Position numbers and translations under genes: made by a program. Positions 3,447-17,528 of a stretch of DNA of 20,816 nucleotides are shown here, one piece after another (the first letter of the stretch is position 1; the number at the start of each line of letters is the position of its first letter). The DNA lies in the IMG/VR virus record IMGVR_UViG_2565956607_000008, positions 1 to 20,816 of that record; one strand, written 5' to 3'. Below the pieces are notes generated by a model. That model was given only the letters and a program-made list of their open reading frames with translations, was not told the DNA's origin and searched no databases. This DNA is from a virus. Lineage: Duplodnaviria > Heunggongvirae > Uroviricota > Caudoviricetes.

Positions 3447-3521
3447 TGGTGTCCCCTGCAGGAATCGAACCTGCAATTAGCCCTTAGGAGGGGCTCGTTA
3501 TATCCATTTAACTAAGGGGAC
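3447..3521 (-). tRNA. argW: tRNA-Arg (anticodon CCU)
   Basis: Reverse complement folds by hand into a 75-nt cloverleaf: 7-bp acceptor stem GTCCCCT/AGGGGAC, D-arm GTTA/TAAC, anticodon stem AGCCC/GGGCT with loop CTCCTAA (anticodon CCT), T-arm GCAGG-TTCGATT-CCTGC, discriminator A, CCA end. Confidence 0.9.
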
Positions 3522-3716: not shown

Positions 3717-4892
3717 GTGGCCCTTAGTGATACCAAACTCCGTAGCATCAATGCTAAGCCATACAGCGGCGCAGCTGAGGTCACAGATGGTGACGGGCTA
3801 AGTGTACGCATAACTCCCACAGGCACGATCACATTCCAGTTTCGTTATCGCTGGAACGGTAAGCCCGTTCGTCTCTCCATTGGCCGCTATCCCGCTATGT
3901 CTCTCAAGGAGGCGCGCGTAGTCGTCGGTGAGATGCGCGAATTGTACCTCAAGGGACTAAACCCGAAAAATTATTTTGCCAAAGAAGATGGCGAGTTGAC
4001 TCTCAAAGAGTGCCTGGATCAGTGGTGGGGTAAGTATGTTGAAACGCTGAAGCCGAACACTCAGACGCTGTACAAGTCCGTTGTGTACAACACGATGTAC
4101 ACAGAATTCCCGGACGCTCCGGTAGTTAACATTCCTATTTCTGCATGGGTGCGTTTCTTTGATAAGCAGGAAAAGAAGAACAGCAAAAAGGCCAGAGTGC
4201 TTCTTCTACAGCTACGTTCTGTAATGAACTGGTGTATCAGCCGCCAGTTGATCCCATCGTGCGAGGTCCTGAAGCTTAGCGTTAAGAGCATTGGGAAAAA
4301 ACCTGATGTGGGTAGCCGAGTTCTCACATATACCGAGTTGGCAAAAATCTGGCTGGCGCTGGAGAATAACAAGATCGTGACTTCCAACAAGGTGCTTCAT
4401 CAGCTGCTTTTGCTTTGGGGAGCCAGGCTATCAGAGCTGCGTCTGGCTACCGCCAGTGAATTTAACATGGATGATCTTATCTGGACGACGCCAGGAGAGC
4501 ATTCCAAGATGGGTAACGTTATCCGTCGCCCGGTGTTTGGCCAGGTGAAACCTTTTGTTGAAAGGCTCCTCAATGCTGGAAATGATGTTCTGTTTCCCGG
4601 CCAGGAACTGGACAAGCCAATAGATCGCTCATCAGCTAATCTCTATATGAAAAAGTTAAGGAATAAAATTGATATCCCAGAATGGCGAACACATGACTTC
4701 AGGCGCTCGCTGGTGACAAATTTATCAGGTGAAGGGGTTATGCCCCACGTCACCGAAAAGATGTTGGGGCATGAGTTGGGAGGAGTGATGGCGGTGTATA
4801 ACAAGCACGATTGGCTGGTAGAACAGAAAGAAGCATATGAGCTATATGCAGATAAAATTTTTTGGCATGTCAAGAAAATAAATGACCAATAA
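3717..4892 (+). CDS. int: Tyrosine integrase of the lambdoid prophage (about 391 aa; GTG start proposed)
   Basis: The ORF track gives 3552..4892, but the conserved integrase N-terminus (ALSDTKLRSINAKP...DGDGLSVRI...FQFRYRWNGK) begins at an in-frame GTG at 3717 preceded by AGGA; C-terminal catalytic region has HDFRRS. Start choice is uncertain. Confidence 0.8.
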   Translation: MALSDTKLRSINAKPYSGAAEVTDGDGLSVRITPTGTITFQFRYRWNGKPVRLSIGRYPAMSLKEARVVVGEMRELYLKGLNPKNYFAKEDGELTLKECLDQWWGKYVETLKPNTQTLYKSVVYNTMYTEFPDAPVVNIPISAWVRFFDKQEKKNSKKARVLLLQLRSVMNWCISRQLIPSCEVLKLSVKSIGKKPDVGSRVLTYTELAKIWLALENNKIVTSNKVLHQLLLLWGARLSELRLATASEFNMDDLIWTTPGEHSKMGNVIRRPVFGQVKPFVERLLNAGNDVLFPGQELDKPIDRSSANLYMKKLRNKIDIPEWRTHDFRRSLVTNLSGEGVMPHVTEKMLGHELGGVMAVYNKHDWLVEQKEAYELYADKIFWHVKKINDQ

Positions 4893-4928
4893 CTTTAGAC
4901 GTAAGTATTGAATTCTCTGGGGTATGAA

Positions 4929-6245
4929 ATGGAAATGATATTTAATGAAGATAAAGATATTGAAAATGCATTGCAGTGGCTATCTAAAACTCTACCAGAA
5001 CCTAATTCATTGTTTGATAGAATGTGTCTGGCACAAGAGAGTTATATTAAAGAATCGGCCTTGAAGGTTAATATTGGAAAGGAATCGAAAATAGAATGGC
5101 ATGGATGTGATGTTGTCGCAGGTTTTTTCTCTCAAGCTAAATCCTATCTTGATAATCGACGTTCTTATGATATTTCAGCTGCATCTAAAATACTTCCTTG
5201 GGTGAAACAACTTGGTGTTAATGTTGAATATCTTAACAATATTCCAGGTGCGGTAGAACGTGCTAAAAGGATGTTGGAAAGTTATACCGTTTATCCGGAT
5301 AATGCATTGTTTGAATTAATATTAGCAGGAAATTATGCGGCTAAAGGTTTCGATGTTGAGTTTATACCTGAGCAGAAAGGAATAGCTAAAACTCCTGAGT
5401 TTAAATGTAGCTTTGATGGTAAGGCTCTTTTTGTTGTTGAATGCAAAAGATTAAAAAAGGGGCAATACGCCCAACAAGAGGAGTCGGCTCATTCAACAAG
5501 AGCTTCTTTTATTGAATCTCGTGTACATCTGAAAAGAATGAGTGTCTGGATGGATGTCACATATAAATGTGAAGTAAATGAAACACCGGACGATTATCTT
5601 TTAAAACATTTATGTAATTATTATGGGAAAGAATATTCCTGGAGTGATGACTACGGTAGTGGTTTTATAAAGCCTGCAAATTTGCGTAGGGTGAATGATG
5701 ATATTAAATTGAACGGTTCTCTATCATTACACACCAAATTGGCAAGACTAATTAAAACATCTCCACTCGATGGTGAGTTTTACAATGTTTATGCGTTTGG
5801 TCGACCAGATGAACGAGATCCACGTTTTTTCTCTAAAATTAATTATGCAACATTACTGACATGGCGAAATGTAAGCGAGGTGTCATTAGAAAACAGGTCC
5901 AGGCATATCACTAAACATTTAAAAGAAATTGAAGATCAAATATCAAATAATGGACTTGGTGTAGGGCATTTAGTTATTGATGCTGACGTACAAAAAGATG
6001 TCGCTGATAAACGGAGGGAAAAAAATATTGAGGCTGCACTTTCTTTCCGGATAAAGTCCAAGCTTGTTCGGTTAAATATTCATTATCTTGTTCCTCGTGT
6101 TGATGAAGATAATTCGTGGCTGGTGGACGAAACTCTTGAATTTTTCAGCGGTGACGAGTTGATTAGTCATTTGTTTCCTGAGGTGAAATTATTTTCAGGG
6201 ATGGAACTTTTTGAAAATGATTTGCCTGCATGGCATCAGAAATGA
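4929..6245 (+). CDS. AT-rich cargo protein with a PD-(D/E)xK nuclease-like motif (about 438 aa)
   Basis: ATG at 4929 preceded by GGGG (ORF track uses TTG at 4908). Residues GFDVEF...x...FVVECKRL give a D...ExK pattern. Immediately downstream of the integrase and followed by an intrinsic terminator. Confidence 0.6.
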   Translation: MEMIFNEDKDIENALQWLSKTLPEPNSLFDRMCLAQESYIKESALKVNIGKESKIEWHGCDVVAGFFSQAKSYLDNRRSYDISAASKILPWVKQLGVNVEYLNNIPGAVERAKRMLESYTVYPDNALFELILAGNYAAKGFDVEFIPEQKGIAKTPEFKCSFDGKALFVVECKRLKKGQYAQQEESAHSTRASFIESRVHLKRMSVWMDVTYKCEVNETPDDYLLKHLCNYYGKEYSWSDDYGSGFIKPANLRRVNDDIKLNGSLSLHTKLARLIKTSPLDGEFYNVYAFGRPDERDPRFFSKINYATLLTWRNVSEVSLENRSRHITKHLKEIEDQISNNGLGVGHLVIDADVQKDVADKRREKNIEAALSFRIKSKLVRLNIHYLVPRVDEDNSWLVDETLEFFSGDELISHLFPEVKLFSGMELFENDLPAWHQK

Positions 6246-9092: not shown

Positions 9093-9737
9093 TTAGCGGC
9101 GCATCTGGCGGCGGTGTTCGACAACGACACCGATGATGGAAATTTTTTCAACAGCAGAGTTTAAAGCAGCAAAATCAGGGTTTAACGGGACCAATTCGAA
9201 AACCTCTTCACCATTTTCGTTGACACCCCTTGCACGGTATTTTTTAAAAGTGGCGTATTCACTACCGTTTTTGGCTACAACATAGTCCCCAGGACCTGGA
9301 CACAAGTCAGGATCCACAATGATAGTGTCTCCCTCTTTGAACTCTGGCTCCATAGATTTTCCACGTACCTTAAGAGCGAAGGTACCAAACGAATGAGCGC
9401 CGTTTGTTAAAATGTAATCCACGGCACCCTCTAAATTACGAGCATCACTTTCAGATGTCCAAGTTCCTGCTTGAACCCAACTTATGATAGGGATCTGCAT
9501 AGCGCCTAAGTTGCCAGGCGCTACATTGGAGAGTTCCTCTTTACCGGTGAGGAGAAAGTCCTCAGAAACACCAAAATACCGAGCTAATTTTGTCAGCGAG
9601 ACTCCTCCGGGTATGTTTTGGTCTTTCTCCCAGTATCCAATGGTGACATCTGTCACTCCAACAACTTTACCCAGTTGCTTCTGGGTAAGCTTACGATCCT
9701 TTCTTAATGATTTTAAACGACTTCCAAATGTGCTCAC
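9093..9737 (-). CDS. cI: CI-like prophage repressor (HTH_XRE N-terminus, S24 LexA-like peptidase C-terminus; 214 aa)
   Basis: N-terminal MSTFGSRLKSLRKDRKLTQKQLGKVVGV... HTH; C-terminal ...KVRGKSMEPEFKEGDTIIVDPD... Ser-Lys dyad region typical of autocleaving repressors; GTG start; divergent from cro. Confidence 0.85.
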   Translation of the reverse strand: MSTFGSRLKSLRKDRKLTQKQLGKVVGVTDVTIGYWEKDQNIPGGVSLTKLARYFGVSEDFLLTGKEELSNVAPGNLGAMQIPIISWVQAGTWTSESDARNLEGAVDYILTNGAHSFGTFALKVRGKSMEPEFKEGDTIIVDPDLCPGPGDYVVAKNGSEYATFKKYRARGVNENGEEVFELVPLNPDFAALNSAVEKISIIGVVVEHRRQMRR

Positions 9738-9760
9738 TGTGGTTCGCCATGTTATGAAAA

Positions 9761-9824
9761 CTAAATTATCTTAGCTTTAATTGACCTAAATTTGCTTTGG
9801 TCTTAATATCTAAATAAATTTAGG
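9761..9824. promoter_or_regulatory. Putative right operator region (OR) with three repressor-binding palindromes
   Basis: CTAAATTATCTTAG (9761..9774), CTAAATTTGCTTTGG (9786..9800), CTAAATAAATTTAG (9810..9823), spaced about 24 bp apart between the divergent cI and cro starts. Confidence 0.5.
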
Positions 9825-9831
9825 AGGGTGT

Positions 9832-10041
9832 ATGACAACAACAGAGTTAGAAACGTTCTTCGGAACCCCCAACAAGGCAGCAGACTTCTTCGGTGTTTCT
9901 CCTGAGGCTTTTTATCAATGGCGAAAACGACCGGGCAGTTTGATCCCAAAAGGTCGTGCTGCAGAAGCTGCATATCGTACTAATGGGCAGCTTGTTTTTC
10001 GACCTGAACTTTACCAAAAGGCTACAGATTCAGCTGCTTGA
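9832..10041 (+). CDS. cro: Cro-like small DNA-binding regulator (69 aa)
   Basis: ATG preceded by AGGAGG at 9821..9826; divergent from cI across the operator region; small basic HTH-like protein. Confidence 0.7.
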   Translation: MTTTELETFFGTPNKAADFFGVSPEAFYQWRKRPGSLIPKGRAAEAAYRTNGQLVFRPELYQKATDSAA

Positions 10042-10186
10042 AAGTAACTACAAATCGAATTTTAAAGGGGTAGGTGTGACAAAAAAAATTGAATCAGAGG
10101 TGATAAAGCGGTTGCAAGCGCTCAACCCTGAAACGGTAAGGCTGGATGAAATGAATCGAGTAGTGACTCTGATCGGGTGGACCTTA

Positions 10187-10510
10187 TCAGAAAAACTTCC
10201 AGACACCTATAGCGATGAGAACAAAGGCAAGGATATCGAACACGACTCCGATTCGCTTGGGATTTCTCGGGTAACAAGAAATGGTTGCTGTAACCCGACC
10301 GAGGCCGTCGTACTGGAGCATTTCCTGGTAGGGGTGGTTAATCCACTCACCAATGCCCCAAAAAAAGACGCCAAGGGAAACCAGTGCTGTAGGGCCAGGA
10401 GGATATGCAGAAAGAACTCCAGTACCGTTCAGCAGAAAAACGAATGCACCAGCGACAATCAAAACTTTGTACCAGTAGTCCAGAGTCAATTTAGACAAAG
10501 GGTTATTCAT
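10187..10510 (-). CDS. Small integral membrane protein (107 aa, about 3 predicted TM helices), possible moron
   Basis: Strongly hydrophobic segments with aromatic belts. The overlapping plus-strand ORF 9956..10546 translates to Cys/Arg-rich text typical of antisense noise. Weak ribosome-binding site, so uncertain. Confidence 0.4.
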   Translation of the reverse strand: MNNPLSKLTLDYWYKVLIVAGAFVFLLNGTGVLSAYPPGPTALVSLGVFFWGIGEWINHPYQEMLQYDGLGRVTATISCYPRNPKRIGVVFDILAFVLIAIGVWKFF

Positions 10511-10568
10511 TTAATACACCGGCTGTTCCGTGGGCTAAGAAAGTGATTTTAAGCGAAGGGTTATCAAC

Positions 10569-11036
10569 ATGGTAGAACAAAAGCAAAGTTTGAAAGATGT
10601 AGTCAAGGCTATGTGTAAGTCCATACATGGTGGGCGTGAGGCTATGGCTGGCGCGCTAGGCATGACCTTAACGCAGTTCAATAACAACCTTTATGAGAAA
10701 AATGGTTGTCGTTTCTTCGAAGTCAGCGAACTGGAAGCGATGGAGGACATTTCCAACACGTCGTTACTGGCTGACTACTTCGCTCGCCGTCGTGGTGCTC
10801 TGCTGGTGGATGTTCCGCACCTGGAAGAACTGGACCGCGTGGACTTATTTAGCCGGGCAATGCGTACCTCTGCCGCCAGGGGGCAGGTTGATCAGATTAT
10901 CGAACAGGCGCTTGAAGATGGCGTTATTGAAAGGCACGAGGCCGAAGAAATCATGGTGCATCACCGCCGTCACCTGGCAGCTCGTGAAGAAGAGATTGCC
11001 GCAATCATCACGCTTTTTTCACGCAAAAAGAAGTGA
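10569..11036 (+). CDS. CII-like phage regulatory protein (CP76/YdaT-like family; 155 aa)
   Basis: Position downstream of cro; N-terminal pattern (LKDVVKAMCKSIHGGREAMAGALGMTLTQFNN) recalled as the phage CP76-type CII family. Recollection, not a search. Confidence 0.6.
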   Translation: MVEQKQSLKDVVKAMCKSIHGGREAMAGALGMTLTQFNNNLYEKNGCRFFEVSELEAMEDISNTSLLADYFARRRGALLVDVPHLEELDRVDLFSRAMRTSAARGQVDQIIEQALEDGVIERHEAEEIMVHHRRHLAAREEEIAAIITLFSRKKK

Positions 11037-14225: not shown

Positions 14226-14570
14226 ATGCGTGATATGTATGAAATTTTAGACCGCTGGGGAGCATGGGCTGCAGCTGATAGTAGTGGTGTTGATTGGAAA
14301 CCCATTGCCGCAGGTTTTAAAGGTTTGTTACCTCATGGAAAGAAAACACGTCATCAATGCGATGATGATGAAGGAATCATGATTGACGGCTGTGTAGCGC
14401 GATTGCGGAAGTATAAGCCAGAAGAGTATGAGTTAATAATTGCTCATTTTGTTATTGGTTTCTCATTAAGAAGCATCGCGAAGAAACGGAAGTGTTCTGA
14501 TGGGACCATCAGGAAGGAATTGCAGACTGCAATGGGGTTTGTAGATGGTTGTTTAGAAATGGTTAACTGA
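14226..14570 (+). CDS. Late-gene antitermination protein Q (QuuD-like family; 114 aa)
   Basis: MRD...LDRWGAWAA...DWKPIAAGFKGL...RHQCDDDEG...DGCVARL...CSDGTIRKELQTAMGFVDGCL closely follows the pattern I recall for DLP12-type Q antiterminators. Confidence 0.8.
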   Translation: MRDMYEILDRWGAWAAADSSGVDWKPIAAGFKGLLPHGKKTRHQCDDDEGIMIDGCVARLRKYKPEEYELIIAHFVIGFSLRSIAKKRKCSDGTIRKELQTAMGFVDGCLEMVN

Positions 14571-14606: not shown

Positions 14607-15068
14607 TTAAAAGCTTTTAAGATATTTGCTTTTGATTTTTTCACTAACACTTTGTAATTCATGCAGTGTTGTGCCAACTTTATCAGCTTCATATTTTGTG
14701 TCATTGGTACATGCTTGGCGCAACTCTGCTATGAAACCTGTATCTTTTGTGCGGCTTGCATCAAGGAGTTGAATGCGTTCACATATAAACTCAACATGCC
14801 GTACGGACGATGTAAATATGAAATAAGATACTCTTTTGTCTTTTTCTTTATTCTCAAGTAGTTCCAGCATTTCACTATAAATGAAATCTAACTTGTAAAA
14901 CAACTCGTCTATCAATCTGTTTATTTCAAGTTTTTTGAGATTGTTTGCATTATTTTTCCGCGCCAAGTAGGCAGTAACTATCCATCCAATGATAGTTAAA
15001 CATATGCCCACAATAGCAATTATGGTAGCTGGTAGTGCCCATAAATTTGGAGTAACGGCTTGTTCCAT
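14607..15068 (-). CDS. Cassette gene C: single-pass membrane protein with helical cytoplasmic domain (153 aa)
   Basis: N-terminal hydrophobic helix (LWALPATIIAIVGICLTIIGWIVTAYLA) then charged helical region; 1-nt TAATG overlap with gene B; GAGGGATG ribosome-binding site; AT-rich. Confidence 0.7.
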   Translation of the reverse strand: MEQAVTPNLWALPATIIAIVGICLTIIGWIVTAYLARKNNANNLKKLEINRLIDELFYKLDFIYSEMLELLENKEKDKRVSYFIFTSSVRHVEFICERIQLLDASRTKDTGFIAELRQACTNDTKYEADKVGTTLHELQSVSEKIKSKYLKSF

Positions 15069-15385
15069 TATTTGGCATCCCTCAGAGCATCATTGATATA
15101 AGTAACAACCTCGGCAACTAATGCCGGATCCTTACTTTTAAGATTTTTCTTTAGGTTGTTAATCTTATCTTTGCTGATTCCCTTTCGCACCAGTCCACCA
15201 AAGGCCTCCTCCAAAAATGAGGATCCATACCCGAAAACCCCGTCAAAGTCAACGCAAATTTCATCATTTTCCAGTATTGCAGGAACTAAATAAAATTCGC
15301 GGAATTTTTCGCCACTATTCTCTCCAAGCGACTCGTAGCGAGGGCCAGGATATCTGGAGAATTCCTTGATATATAAAGTTTTCAT
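15068..15385 (-). CDS. Cassette gene B: STAS-like (DUF4325-like) small protein (105 aa)
   Basis: VDFDGVFGYGSSFLEEAFGGL parallels the anti-sigma-factor-antagonist motif around the phosphorylatable serine; strong AAGGAGAAG ribosome-binding site; ATGA overlap with gene A. Confidence 0.7.
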   Translation of the reverse strand: MKTLYIKEFSRYPGPRYESLGENSGEKFREFYLVPAILENDEICVDFDGVFGYGSSFLEEAFGGLVRKGISKDKINNLKKNLKSKDPALVAEVVTYINDALRDAK

Positions 15386-16482
15386 GCCGCTTCTCCTTCA
15401 GTTGGTAGTGGCACACTCCACTCAACAATTGTACCATTGATGGATTTATGAGCATCCCACATCAATTCGGGCCTTGCTTTCTTCCTTTTAGTATATCTGT
15501 AGTTCCCCTTGTTTGATATGATTCTGAGTTGGGCATGTGTAAAATTATCTATAATTGATTGTAAATCCGTGCCGCCTTTCCCTCTGTAACCAAGTTTTGT
15601 TCTTGTGCGTTTAACCTGTAATGATGCTTTTATATGCTCTGAATCTAATTCAATAGGCTTGCCTATAATTTCAATAAGTTTTGATAAAACTCTTTCTCCT
15701 TGAGTTAATTTCAAAGTTTTGGGAATTCCAACTCCTAAATCGCATATGGATAAAATCAATTTATTATTCATTATTGCTGCAAAACACCACCATTTATTTT
15801 TAATGTTGTTCTTTTGCTTGTCGTATAGATCATCTCTATATGCGTGCTCTACCGAGTTGGACATCGCCTCAATTAGAGGTCTGTATAAATTAGTGTAATC
15901 CGTTCCCATTTTCTCAGTTACTGCTTCTAATAGTTTCCCAGCAATTGTAGAATCAACCAGTTCACCTCTAATAACCTCCCAGCACTTAACAGATGGGTTC
16001 TCTTTCATCTCTCGACCTTTTACCCCAAATGCAGAATATATACCAATACGGTTAAGTACGCTATCAACTACATGATGTTCGCCTTTCTGTGTAGTTTTGA
16101 ATGGAGGGCGAGTTACAGTGTATCTTATATCTGGATAGTTACTTTTTAAACTCTCCAGTTTTGCTAGTAAATATAATCCTGCAGCGGCCGATATGTAAAT
16201 CGTATTTCTGAAGCAAACATATATTTTTTGAGTTTTAAACTGCTCTTGCTTGGCTTTTTTTTCAATATTTTCAATAAAACTTATTACGTTGTCATGGTAA
16301 TTAGAGTTATAGATATCAAGAATAGTAGGTGCAACTATTTTTTCAGAATTTGATTTTCGTATGTTACCATTACGTTTGTATCTTTTGTGTTCGGTTGACT
16401 TTTTGCTTGCGTTTGCACGGAGAAACCTTTTTCTCCTTATTCTTTTTAACACTGAAGTATAGAGCTGTTCTATTTTTTTCAT
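15382..16482 (-). CDS. Cassette gene A: protein with basic N-terminal region and C-terminal GHKL/HATPase-like ATP-binding domain (366 aa)
   Basis: AAGGAG ribosome-binding site 8 nt upstream; N-box-like EAMSNSVEHAY (E205..N209..H213), G1-like CDLGVGI (D248xGxG), G2-like GYRGKGGTDL (about 299..308); AT-rich. Confidence 0.7.
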   Translation of the reverse strand: MKKIEQLYTSVLKRIRRKRFLRANASKKSTEHKRYKRNGNIRKSNSEKIVAPTILDIYNSNYHDNVISFIENIEKKAKQEQFKTQKIYVCFRNTIYISAAAGLYLLAKLESLKSNYPDIRYTVTRPPFKTTQKGEHHVVDSVLNRIGIYSAFGVKGREMKENPSVKCWEVIRGELVDSTIAGKLLEAVTEKMGTDYTNLYRPLIEAMSNSVEHAYRDDLYDKQKNNIKNKWWCFAAIMNNKLILSICDLGVGIPKTLKLTQGERVLSKLIEIIGKPIELDSEHIKASLQVKRTRTKLGYRGKGGTDLQSIIDNFTHAQLRIISNKGNYRYTKRKKARPELMWDAHKSINGTIVEWSVPLPTEGEAA

Positions 16483-16707: not shown

Positions 16708-16737
16708 TTGACTAACACAAAGTTTACAAATTAGATT
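16708..16737 (+). promoter_or_regulatory. Putative late promoter (pR'-like)
   Basis: TTGACT (16708..16713), 17-18 bp spacer, TTAGAT/TAGATT (16731..16737); upstream of a non-coding leader ending in terminators before the lysis genes. Sequence-only prediction. Confidence 0.3.
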
Positions 16738-17010
16738 ATCGACATGGTGAATCCCCCTATGCGGTGGGGCGACCAGTCACTTACAGTGATCTGTAAATGC
16801 AGCGCGGGCCATGTCGACTGGGACATGCTCACCGGGAGGCACCCGGCACCATACAATGCTACTAAGCTATTTGGTAGTGGGGTTGCCGTTTCGGCTTCTC
16901 CAGCTATGTTTAAAAGGTAGTAACGGAAAACGAGCGCTCTCCTGGTAAATCGGTAGCTCGGACTATTAGGTGCGCCTCGTTCCGTTGCAGAATCAGTATT
17001 GCCTACCTTC

Positions 17011-17216: not shown

Positions 17217-17528
17217 ATGGCAAAGCATATGCAAGACAAAGAAAGCATGGCCGGAATCACCTGGCTGGCTCTGCTGATCATTGCTGGCTGGGGCGGCCTT
17301 GTCCGATTCCTGATGGATGTGAAGCAGGGCAAAGCGAAATGGAGTTGGATAAATGCTTTTGCGCAGATTGTGGTTTCGGCGTTTACCGGGGTCATTGGTG
17401 GGCTCATCAGCATTGAAGGTGGCCTGAGTATTTACATGATACTGGCCACGGCCGGTATCAGTGGCGCTATGGGTTCCGTAGCGCTCACGTATTTCTGGGA
17501 ACGAATTACCGGAGTGAAAGCACAATGA
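17217..17528 (+). CDS. Holin (103 aa, multi-TM)
   Basis: GGAGGTG ribosome-binding site; hydrophobic helices with charged C-terminus; immediately upstream of and overlapping (ATGA) the endolysin gene. Confidence 0.75.
   Translation: MAKHMQDKESMAGITWLALLIIAGWGGLVRFLMDVKQGKAKWSWINAFAQIVVSAFTGVIGGLISIEGGLSIYMILATAGISGAMGSVALTYFWERITGVKAQ

What the first reader, a model, noticed from the sequence alone, without database searches (positions are those of the whole stretch)
10187..10510. Reverse-strand small membrane protein between cro and the CII-like gene: possible exclusion moron
A 107-aa, roughly 3-TM protein is encoded opposite to rightward early transcription. Genes in this position in lambdoid prophages are often superinfection-exclusion or abortive-infection factors. 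The call competes with a plus-strand ORF whose C-terminal translation looks like antisense noise.
Basis: inference. Interest (0 to 1): 0.4.

Follow-up and report, generated by a model that had tools for sequence, protein, structure and literature searches.

The report
Membrane gene nested antisense inside another
The small reverse-strand membrane-protein gene is real and sits in a 508-bp add-on cassette of an E. coli/Klebsiella prophage, but the forward-strand reading frame that runs right through it is also kept intact by selection, so one stretch of DNA appears to be read on both strands.

Summary
The ORF at 10187-10510 (-) exists as described: 107 aa, ATG start, three predicted TM helices. 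It is a genuine gene. It belongs to an unnamed family (about 419 clusters at 50% identity, invariant GEWINHP motif), evolves under purifying selection (pN/pS 0.14-0.29) and folds confidently (AF2 pLDDT 91).

It lies in a 508-bp cassette (10055-10562) between cro and the CII/YmfL gene. A near-identical prophage (E. coli EC31) lacks the cassette.

The competing plus-strand ORF (10076-10546, 156 aa) is not just noise:
- Its non-overlapping N-terminal ~35 aa are conserved across clades under purifying selection (pN/pS 0.3-0.4).
- The membrane gene uses no TTA, CTA or TCA codon in any of 38 unique sequences from mid-GC loci. These form 8 of the 11 clusters with an open antisense frame. Joint P is about 1e-10.
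- That codon avoidance keeps the antisense frame open, yet the overlapped tail shows no amino-acid constraint and is predicted disordered.

Best reading: a nested antisense pair. The membrane gene faces against the early lytic operon. The plus ORF is translated across it, most simply to keep the early operon from suffering polarity.

An exclusion function is plausible but untested, and the protein matches no known exclusion or defence family. A related cassette sits unannotated in the dicBF operon of 793 of 5426 E. coli genomes.

The parts
10055..10562 (.). 508-bp cassette (indel) between cro and the CII/YmfL gene. It is absent from the otherwise near-identical prophage of E. coli EC31, which has 6 bp here.
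   Evidence: blastn/MAFFT comparison of window and L002. Other contigs with different cro alleles join the cassette at 10003-10044.
10187..10510 (-). Gene for the 107-aa, 3-TM inner-membrane protein of the unnamed 'GEWINHP' family. This is the reported finding.
   Evidence: ORF; PGAP CDS WP_024176407.1; homologues; pN/pS 0.14-0.29 with codon position 3 varying most; AF2 pLDDT 90.9.
10076..10546 (+). Plus-strand ORF of 156 aa with a GTG start, in the PR early operon. It fully contains the membrane gene in antisense, with codons in register. It ends 22 nt before the CII ATG.
   Evidence: ORF. No stop in this frame in 38/38 unique sequences from mid-GC loci, against 2-6 expected each. Homologues are called by other pipelines; phrog_35040 hit; mEp390 gp39 is 28% identical over the full length.
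10076..10186 (+). Non-overlapping N-terminal segment of the plus ORF. It encodes the conserved small domain (..EVIKRLQALNPETVRLDEMNRVVTLIGW..; family consensus fFerLe..PGSV.ID...G.VTLIGW).
   Evidence: Conserved across clades. Codon-position variability 0.43/0.32/0.66 and pN/pS 0.32-0.39 at moderate divergence. AF2 gives a helix plus three strands at pLDDT 50-66.
10064..10070 (+). Shine-Dalgarno-like AAAGGGG, 5 nt upstream of the GTG start of the plus ORF. It lies inside the cassette.
   Evidence: Read directly from the sequence. The segment NYKSNFKGVG-VTKK is conserved in cassettes joined to different upstream genes.
10546..10551 (-). -10-like hexamer TAAAAT, 36 nt upstream of the membrane gene's ATG. 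The -35 position is poor and overlaps the CII start codon. This is a candidate promoter only.
   Evidence: TA[A/G]AAT at the same distance in the window, L046, L006, L076 and the Qin-type L079. It falls below the threshold of the sigma-70 scan.
9832..10041 (+). cro-type gene immediately upstream, giving the context of the PR operon. A PR-like promoter TTGACC-17-TAATAT lies at 9781-9809.
   Evidence: Pfam P22_Cro; promoter scan.
10569..11036 (+). CII/CP76 (YmfL-family) regulator gene immediately downstream (context).
   Evidence: Pfam PF06892 and phrog_101; PGAP annotation.

Best explanation
The locus is a 508-bp accessory cassette that carries two nested genes on opposite strands.

(1) The minus strand encodes a 107-aa inner-membrane protein. 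It has three TM helices and a cytoplasmic beta hairpin with the conserved GEWINHP and HPRN motifs. Its family is old and widespread but uncharacterised. The gene points against the early lytic operon. It can therefore be expressed while PR is repressed (lysogeny or establishment). Once PR fires, convergent transcription and the antisense early mRNA would oppose it (inferred).

(2) The plus strand carries a 156-aa ORF that is the first gene after cro in the PR operon. It has its own RBS and a conserved N-terminal ~35-aa domain. Its ~115-aa tail was overprinted on the antisense strand of the membrane gene.

Selection removes every TTA, CTA and TCA codon from the membrane gene, so this tail never meets a stop. 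The tail's amino-acid sequence is otherwise free. The most economical reason is that ribosomes must translate across the reverse-oriented insert. That would keep the early transcript from becoming naked RNA, which is exposed to Rho-dependent polarity and to pairing with the membrane-gene mRNA before it reaches cII and the replication genes (inferred).

The function of the membrane protein is not shown. A prophage-benefit role at the membrane, such as superinfection exclusion or abortive infection, is the leading guess from position only.
For: Membrane gene is real:
- Full-length homologues at 33-98% identity and 419 clusters by profile search, nearly all 100-115 aa.
- pN/pS 0.14-0.29, with substitutions concentrated at its codon position 3.
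- AF2 pLDDT 90.9.

Cassette:
- Clean 508-bp indel against EC31.

Plus ORF is maintained:
- Zero antisense stops in 42/58 unique homologue DNAs. This includes all 38 from mid-GC (<0.55) loci, which are the enterobacterial-type prophage contexts.
- Expectation from local codon usage is 2-6 stops per gene (P0 0.001-0.2 each).
- Joint P is about 1e-12 over 11 clusters at 70% identity, and 1e-10 for the 8 clusters with GC<0.55.
- Pooled Leu codons: TTA 0, CTA 0, TTG 22, CTT 42, CTC 27, CTG 22. Ser TCA is 0 of 33. Other A-ending codons are common.
- The other four alternative frames carry 3-9 stops.
- Distant family members outside this context carry as many antisense stops as expected.

N-terminal domain outside the overlap:
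- Conserved across clades, with position 3 most variable and pN/pS 0.32-0.39.

Tail is unconstrained:
- Antisense pN/pS is about 1.1.
- Synonymous sites at conserved 4-fold codons vary freely.
- AF2 pLDDT is 30-40.

Context:
- In 8 independent clades the cassette follows a cro-type gene in the rightward operon, although repressor, cro and downstream genes differ.
- In Qin-type prophages it sits in the DicA-repressed dicBF operon. There the plus ORF is fused in frame to the YdfB N-terminus (operon regulation from PMC10448788).
Against: - There are no expression data. Neither translation of the plus ORF nor transcription of the membrane gene is shown.
- No sigma-70 promoter at the scan threshold and no terminator was found for the membrane gene. 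There is only a conserved -10-like hexamer.
- The plus-strand RNA over the overlap is not notably C-rich or G-poor (C/G 0.96), so a strong rut site is not evident.
- If anti-polarity were the only need, the conserved N-terminal domain would be unexplained. The plus ORF product may therefore have a function of its own.
- The membrane protein matches no known exclusion or defence family.
- The window's copy has Cys79 where the family has a near-conserved Gly.
Confidence: 0.6

Rival explanations
1. Both products are functional partners. The membrane protein is a lysogen-expressed exclusion, abortive-infection or toxin-like factor. The plus-strand protein is made first after cro when the phage itself goes lytic and acts as its antidote or escape factor. 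Encoding them on opposite strands makes them inseparable and reciprocally expressed.
For: - The N-terminal domain of the plus ORF is conserved and under purifying selection.
- A second N-terminal variant carries a CPxCG knuckle.
- The pair always travels together, in two different operon positions.
- The orientation gives reciprocal expression by design (inference).
- Precedent recalled from memory, not tested here: P22 and lambda sieB with the in-frame esc product and the antisense sas RNA.
Against: - The overlapped two-thirds of the plus ORF shows no amino-acid constraint and is predicted disordered.
- There is no homology to any known toxin, antitoxin, Sie or Abi family.
- Many family members elsewhere have no antisense ORF at all, so the membrane protein does not generally need such a partner.
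Confidence: 0.22
2. Only the minus-strand membrane gene is real. The plus-strand ORF is a chance 'shadow' ORF in the codon-aligned antisense frame, which is essentially the first reader's view.
For: - The codon-aligned antisense frame is the usual frame of shadow ORFs.
- The tail has pN/pS of about 1.1 and is predicted disordered.
- High-GC members (L007, L013, L027) are open with P0 0.24-0.36 and lack the N-terminal domain.
- PGAP calls only the minus ORF.
Against: - Complete absence of TTA/CTA/TCA in 38 unique mid-GC sequences in 8 clusters with saturated synonymous divergence. Joint P is about 1e-10, while other non-optimal and A-ending codons are used freely.
- There is a conserved, selected N-terminal coding segment with an RBS, in frame with the only open frame.
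- The plus ORF is fused in frame to ydfB in Qin-type prophages.
Confidence: 0.1
3. Only the plus-strand ORF is real, as annotated in phage mEp390 (gp39), phage HannyBb (CDS0038) and PHROG 35040. On this view the 107-aa minus ORF is the artefact.
For: - Phage annotators and several pipelines call the plus-type ORF.
- It hits phrog_35040 at E=2e-6.
- It runs in the same direction as the operon.
Against: - The substitution pattern shows the minus frame is the constrained one: pN/pS 0.14-0.29 against about 1.1.
- The 107-aa family is conserved at full length across Gamma-, Beta- and Epsilonproteobacteria and Desulfobulbia, including members whose antisense frame has up to 12 stops.
- AF2 gives pLDDT 91 for the membrane protein against 42 for the plus ORF.
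Confidence: 0.02

Closest known systems
Lambdoid 'morons' (accessory genes inserted between conserved phage genes, e.g. lambda bor/lom, HK97 gp15). Concept cited from general knowledge.
   Same: It is a discrete extra DNA segment, present in some prophages and absent in near-identical relatives. It encodes a small membrane protein oriented against the surrounding lytic operon.
   Different: No clear own promoter or terminator was found. Base composition is not deviant: GC 46% against 47-51% in the flanks. Unlike classical morons, the opposite strand carries a selected ORF that belongs to the host operon.
Embedded antisense overlapping genes (OLGs) reported in E. coli O157:H7 and Pseudomonas aeruginosa (e.g. 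pop/ompA, PMC7103648; olg1/olg2, PMC8850804)
   Same: A long ORF is fully overlapped in antisense with a conserved gene. Stop codons are depleted beyond expectation. Annotation pipelines keep only one of the two.
   Different: - Here the evidence is comparative, from 8-11 divergent clades, with no Ribo-seq.
- The younger ORF has a non-overlapping conserved N-terminal domain plus an unconstrained overprinted tail.
- The pair is a mobile cassette in phage early operons.
- The selected property seems to be 'stay open' rather than a particular sequence.
P22/lambda sieB-esc-sas exclusion module
   Same: It is an accessory membrane-associated exclusion gene inside an early operon region. Sense/antisense interplay and a second product from the same DNA protect the phage itself.
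   Different: There is no sequence similarity (PHROGs and PADLOC negative). In sieB the second product is in frame on the same strand and the antisense partner is a small RNA. Here the antisense partner is a translated operon ORF.
YdfB / the ydfABC-dicF-dicB operon of the Qin prophage of E. coli K-12
   Same: A sister cassette (46% identical membrane protein) occupies the ydfB-ydfC position of Qin-like prophages. Its plus-type ORF begins with the first 34 residues of K-12 YdfB. The operon is repressed by the CI-like DicA (PMC10448788).
   Different: K-12 itself lacks the cassette and has truncated YdfB plus YdfC instead. The window's cassette sits after cro in the rightward operon and has the PGSV...IGW type of N-terminal domain rather than the CPxCG type.
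Burkholderia phage Bcep176 gp33, phage mEp390 gp39 and PHROG 35040
   Same: Bcep176 gp33 contains the 107-aa family domain in frame (39% identity). mEp390 gp39 and PHROG 35040 correspond to the plus-type ORF.
   Different: All are unannotated 'hypothetical' proteins. The Bcep176 copy has three antisense stops and no plus-type ORF. The mEp390 record calls only the plus-type ORF and misses the membrane gene.

Membership tests
Unnamed 3-TM 'GEWINHP' membrane protein family (no Pfam/NCBIfam/PHROG model) | Full-length similarity at ~100-115 aa. N-terminal NPLSKLxLDYWYK, GEWINHP at the end of TM2, an (G)HPRN loop and a C-terminal TM. | tested here: met
   Alignments. Profile search finds 419 representatives. 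The window copy has all motifs except Gly79, which is Cys.
Lambdoid moron | Segment present or absent between otherwise collinear, closely related phage genomes. | tested here: met
   EC31 prophage: flanks are 99.7% and 95% identical, and the 508 bp are replaced by 6 bp.
Lambdoid moron | Own promoter and own terminator flanking the gene. | tested here: inconclusive
   No minus-strand sigma-70 site at 9/12 or better and no terminator in 9650-10800. There is only a conserved -10-like TAAAAT with a poor -35.
Lambdoid moron | Expression from the repressed prophage. | not testable with these tools
   This needs strand-specific RNA-seq of a lysogen.
Known superinfection-exclusion / abortive-infection proteins (SieA, SieB, Imm, Sp, Sim, RexB, etc.) | Sequence or profile similarity to a described family. 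| tested here: not met
   No hits in PADLOC, PHROGs, Pfam, NCBIfam or PDB sequences.
Known superinfection-exclusion / abortive-infection proteins | Fold similarity to a described exclusion protein. | tested here: not met
Known superinfection-exclusion / abortive-infection proteins | Protection of the lysogen against superinfecting phage. | not testable with these tools
   This needs plating or efficiency-of-plating assays.
Embedded antisense overlapping gene pair (OLG) | Long ORF fully overlapping a bona fide gene on the opposite strand, with stop codons depleted beyond the codon-usage expectation. | tested here: met
   0 stops observed against 2-6 expected per sequence, joint P about 1e-10 to 1e-12.
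Embedded antisense overlapping gene pair (OLG) | Purifying selection on the amino-acid sequence of the overlapping product. | tested here: inconclusive
   Met for the non-overlapping N-terminal domain (pN/pS 0.32-0.39). Not seen in the overlapped tail.
Embedded antisense overlapping gene pair (OLG) | Direct evidence of translation of both frames. | not testable with these tools
   This needs Ribo-seq, tagging or mass spectrometry.
Type I toxin-antitoxin | Very small (typically <60 aa) single-TM toxin with a dedicated antisense small RNA. | tested here: not met
   The protein is 107 aa with three TM helices and a structured loop. No Rfam RNA lies in the cassette. The antisense partner is an operon mRNA with an ORF.

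The most novel reading that the evidence does not exclude
The cassette is a self-contained two-strand conflict module. One strand encodes a membrane effector made only while the early operon is silent, for exclusion or abortive infection. The other strand encodes, in the very same nucleotides, an early lytic protein that neutralises it or lets the phage escape it. Its translation also silences the effector gene and protects the early transcript. That would be a protein-protein 'toxin/antidote' pair encoded antisense to each other and inherited as one indivisible unit. It is present in hundreds of E. coli (Qin-like dicBF operons) and Klebsiella prophages, yet missing from annotation.
Probability: 0.15. 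Interest if true: 0.85.

Novelty: new variant of a known kind. Interest (0 to 1): 0.62.

Why it matters
- Well-supported antisense overlapping protein-coding genes in bacteria and their phages are few and contested. This case has unusually clean comparative support: many divergent clades, a within-family negative control, and a conserved non-overlapping domain. It comes with a simple, testable rationale, namely keeping the operon translated across a reverse-oriented insert.
- It shows how a reverse-oriented accessory gene can be tolerated inside an essential early operon.
- It also exposes a systematic annotation problem. PGAP keeps the membrane gene here. Phage pipelines keep the other strand (mEp390 gp39, HannyBb, PHROG 35040). 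In 793 of 5426 complete E. coli genomes the Qin-type cassette in the dicBF operon is left unannotated.
- The 3-TM family itself (about 419 clusters) has no model in Pfam, NCBIfam, PHROGs or PADLOC. It is a candidate prophage-encoded membrane effector worth testing for phage exclusion.

Tried and rejected
- Family scans of the 107-aa protein against Pfam, PHROGs, NCBIfam, PADLOC and PDB sequences returned nothing.
- Fold searches of the confident AF2 model gave only generic helical bundles: GPCR fragments and complex I/Mrp subunits against PDB, and nothing significant against BFVD. afdb50 was unavailable.
- The promoter/terminator scan found nothing on the minus strand.
- Rfam found no RNA family in the cassette.
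- I looked for a separate convergent small gene encoding the N-terminal domain next to distant family members. None was convincing. One possible PGFTFTP-like antisense ORF in L011 was not pursued.
- Neighbours of non-phage family members (HerA/DUF87, DUF5677, DUF4926, TPR) hint at accessory or defence-island settings but are not decisive.
- Codon optimisation was rejected as the cause of TTA/CTA/TCA avoidance. CTG is only 19% of Leu, CTT is the commonest Leu codon, and the rare codons AGA, AGG, ATA and GGA are all used.
- 'Plus ORF is the only gene' was rejected by the pN/pS asymmetry and the wide distribution of the membrane family.
- The GenBank note that mEp390 gp39 resembles Bcep176 gp33 was checked and is not true at the protein level. 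The two are on opposite strands of homologous DNA.
- Literature searches found no description of this pair.

Full report
**Setting**

The window is 100% identical to the chromosome of E. coli p10A. It covers a lambdoid prophage integrated next to tRNA-Arg(CCT).

The immunity region reads, in order:
- a LexA/CI-type repressor, 9093-9737 (-);
- a PR-like promoter, 9781-9809;
- a P22_Cro-type gene, 9832-10041 (+);
- the reported ORF;
- a CII/CP76 ('YmfL family') gene, 10569-11036 (+);
- DUF4222, an O-like HTH replication protein, and Dam.

**Observation**

The ORF is exactly as described: 10187-10510 (-), ATG start, 107 aa. NCBI PGAP annotates it in p10A as hypothetical protein WP_024176407.1.

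AlphaFold2 with a 20-sequence alignment gives pLDDT 90.9. It predicts helices at 13-30, 38-58 and 86-106 and a beta hairpin at 62-79. Hydropathy and charge distribution fit an N-in, three-TM inner-membrane protein with the hairpin loop in the cytoplasm (topology is inferred).

**The minus ORF is a real gene**

- It has 20 full-length homologues at 33-98% identity.
- A profile search finds 419 cluster representatives, nearly all 100-115 aa.
- Related loci occur in Gamma-, Beta- and Epsilonproteobacteria, Desulfobulbia and others, and in at least 164 viral contigs.
- Motifs are sharply conserved: NPLSKLxLDYWYK, GEWINHP and (G)HPRN.
- On a codon alignment of 58 unique homologue DNAs, substitutions concentrate at its third codon position and pN/pS is 0.14-0.29. 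The codon-aligned antisense frame gives about 1.1.

No Pfam, NCBIfam, PHROG, PADLOC or PDB relative exists. Fold searches give only generic helix bundles.

**It is a cassette**

The prophage of E. coli EC31 has the same repressor and cro (99.7% identity up to 10054) and a 95% identical CII onward from 10563. It has 6 bp where the window has 508 bp. Other contigs join the same cassette to different cro alleles at 10003-10044.

However, no own promoter at the scan threshold and no terminator was found. Base composition is not deviant.

A -10-like TAAAAT lies 36 nt upstream of the ATG. It recurs as TA[A/G]AAT in four other clades, with a poor -35 that overlaps the CII start codon. This geometry is reminiscent of an activator-dependent leftward establishment promoter. 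That reading is inference only.

**The unexpected part: the plus strand**

The plus-strand ORF (10076-10546, 156 aa) has a GTG start with AAAGGGG 5 nt upstream. It ends 22 nt before the CII ATG. It contains the whole membrane gene in antisense, with codons in register.

(a) Stop-codon avoidance
- The antisense frame has zero stops in 42 of 58 unique homologue DNAs. This includes all 38 from mid-GC (<0.55) loci, which are the enterobacterial-type prophage contexts, down to 46% protein identity.
- A stop in that frame requires TTA, CTA or TCA in the membrane gene.
- From the codon usage of neighbouring long ORFs, 2-6 such codons are expected per gene, with P(0) of 0.001-0.2 each.
- I took one conservative representative from each of the 11 clusters at 70% identity. 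Synonymous divergence between clusters is saturated (pS 0.6-0.8). The joint probability is about 1e-12, and 1e-10 for the 8 clusters with GC<0.55.
- Pooled Leu usage is TTA 0, CTA 0, TTG 22, CTT 42, CTC 27, CTG 22. TCA is 0 of 33 Ser. GCA, GGA, ACA, AGA and ATA are all used. This is therefore neither codon optimisation nor avoidance of A at the third position.
- The other four alternative frames carry 3-9 stops.
- Family members outside this context (Pseudomonas, Arcobacter, Shewanella, Bcep176 and others) carry as many antisense stops as expected. They serve as an internal control.

(b) A conserved N-terminal domain
- The part of the plus ORF that lies outside the overlap (10076-10186) encodes a peptide conserved across clades: ..fFerLe..PGSV.ID...G.VTLIGW. 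The window copy reads EVIKRLQALNPETVRLDEMNRVVTLIGW.
- Other clades have a second variant ending in a CPxCG knuckle.
- In the plus frame, codon-position variability is 0.43/0.32/0.66. pN/pS is 0.32-0.39 at moderate divergence.

(c) An unconstrained tail
- The overlapped tail shows no amino-acid constraint. Antisense pN/pS is about 1.1.
- Synonymous sites at conserved four-fold codons of the membrane gene vary freely: 1.5 bits, against 1.8 in the control group.
- AF2 predicts the tail as disordered (pLDDT 30-40). The N-terminal domain gets 50-66.

**Context**

In eight independent clades the cassette directly follows a cro-type HTH gene in the rightward operon. This holds even though the repressor, cro and downstream genes differ. 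In phage mEp390 it sits between the cro-like gp38 and the CII gp40, and only the plus-type ORF (gp39) is annotated.

A sister cassette has a 46% identical membrane protein and the CPxCG-type N-terminus. It sits in the DicA-repressed dicBF early operon of Qin-like prophages and in phage HannyBb. There the plus-type ORF starts with the first 34 residues of YdfB, fused in frame. K-12 itself has a truncated YdfB plus YdfC instead of the cassette. That the operon is transcribed from dicBp and repressed by the CI-like DicA is taken from PMC10448788.

In all of these settings the plus-type ORF runs with a repressor-controlled early operon, and the membrane gene runs against it.

The Qin-type cassette is covered at 80% or more in 793 of 5426 complete E. 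coli genomes. In the example inspected, PGAP annotates neither ORF there, only ydfA and an 'incomplete ydfB'. Database records contain both products as 'hypothetical protein', depending on the pipeline.

**Interpretation**

What is shown:
- The membrane gene is real.
- It sits in a cassette that is present or absent between close relatives.
- The antisense frame is kept open by selection.
- The N-terminal domain of the plus ORF is a constrained coding sequence.
- The tail of the plus ORF is not constrained.

What is inferred:
- The membrane family is old and widespread, while the plus ORF is restricted. The tail was therefore probably overprinted on the antisense strand.
- 'Open but sequence-free' fits best a requirement for continued translation of the early transcript across a reverse-oriented insert. 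Two possible reasons are avoiding Rho-dependent polarity on cII and the replication genes, and shielding the mRNA from pairing with the convergent membrane-gene mRNA.
- The orientation predicts reciprocal expression: the membrane protein when the early operon is off, and the plus ORF when it is on.

Weak points:
- There are no expression data.
- There is no clear promoter for the membrane gene.
- No obvious rut-like composition is present (C/G 0.96).
- The conserved N-terminal domain suggests that the plus product also has a function of its own.

**What the membrane protein does**

This remains unknown. Exclusion or abortive infection is a reasonable guess from orientation, membrane location and cassette behaviour. 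It fails every homology-based membership test. Non-phage neighbours (HerA-like, DUF5677, DUF4926) hint only at accessory or defence-type neighbourhoods.

**Comparison with known systems**

- It behaves like a moron in its present/absent distribution, but lacks demonstrable own transcription signals.
- It resembles the reported embedded antisense overlapping genes of E. coli O157 and P. aeruginosa (PMC7103648, PMC8850804). It differs in that the evidence is comparative, and in that the selected feature is openness plus a separate N-terminal domain.
- It recalls, from memory only, the P22/lambda sieB-esc-sas arrangement.
- No paper describing this pair was found.

**Verdict**

- The 'exclusion' part is untested.
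- The dismissal of the plus ORF is not supported.
- The locus is best described as a nested antisense two-ORF cassette. I rate it a new variant of a known kind, with interest about 0.6.

Noticed in passing
L114:2500-3300 (E. coli CFSAN061769) and L115:2009-2935 (K-12 Qin): K-12 YdfB (42 aa) shares its first 34 residues with the N-terminus of the Qin-type plus ORF, which is ~205 aa as annotated in phage HannyBb. K-12 has ydfB-C-term plus ydfC where other strains have the membrane-gene cassette. 793 of 5426 complete E. coli genomes cover 80% or more of the cassette. In the example inspected, PGAP annotates neither of its ORFs.
   Followed up: partly
window 14607-16482 (-): Three reverse-oriented genes lie between the Q antiterminator (14226-14570) and the holin (17229-17528). 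PGAP calls them a 153-aa hypothetical, a STAS-like domain protein and a 366-aa hypothetical. This looks like another accessory or defence-type insert at the Q-lysis junction.
   Followed up: no
window 16715-16907 (+): Rfam match to the sRNA family STnc100 (76 bits against a gathering score of 47), upstream of the lysis genes.
   Followed up: no
window 3447-3521 (-) and 3717-6245 (+): tRNA-Arg(CCT) lies next to the integrase (3717-4892), which is the likely attachment site. A 438-aa hypothetical protein (4929-6245) sits directly after the integrase and was not characterised.
   Followed up: no
L003:2962-3417 (phage mEp390 gp39) vs L005:2866-3330 (Bcep176 gp33): The GenBank note 'gp39 similar to Bcep176 gp33' is not true at the protein level (BLASTP E=0.53).
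   Followed up: yes
window 10274-10276 (codon 79 of the 107-aa protein): The window (E. coli p10A) copy has Cys at position 79. Klebsiella copies and almost the whole family have Gly there (ISGYPRNP / ISGHPRN motif). This may be a slightly impaired or variant allele.
   Followed up: no
L011:150-414 relative to its membrane gene (Oleiphilaceae MAG): An 87-aa antisense ORF overlaps the 3' half of a distant family member. It starts with ...LKPGFTFTPN..., which resembles the PGFKFTP...CPxCG variant of the plus-ORF N-terminal domain. It could be an older or partial version of the nested arrangement.
   Followed up: no
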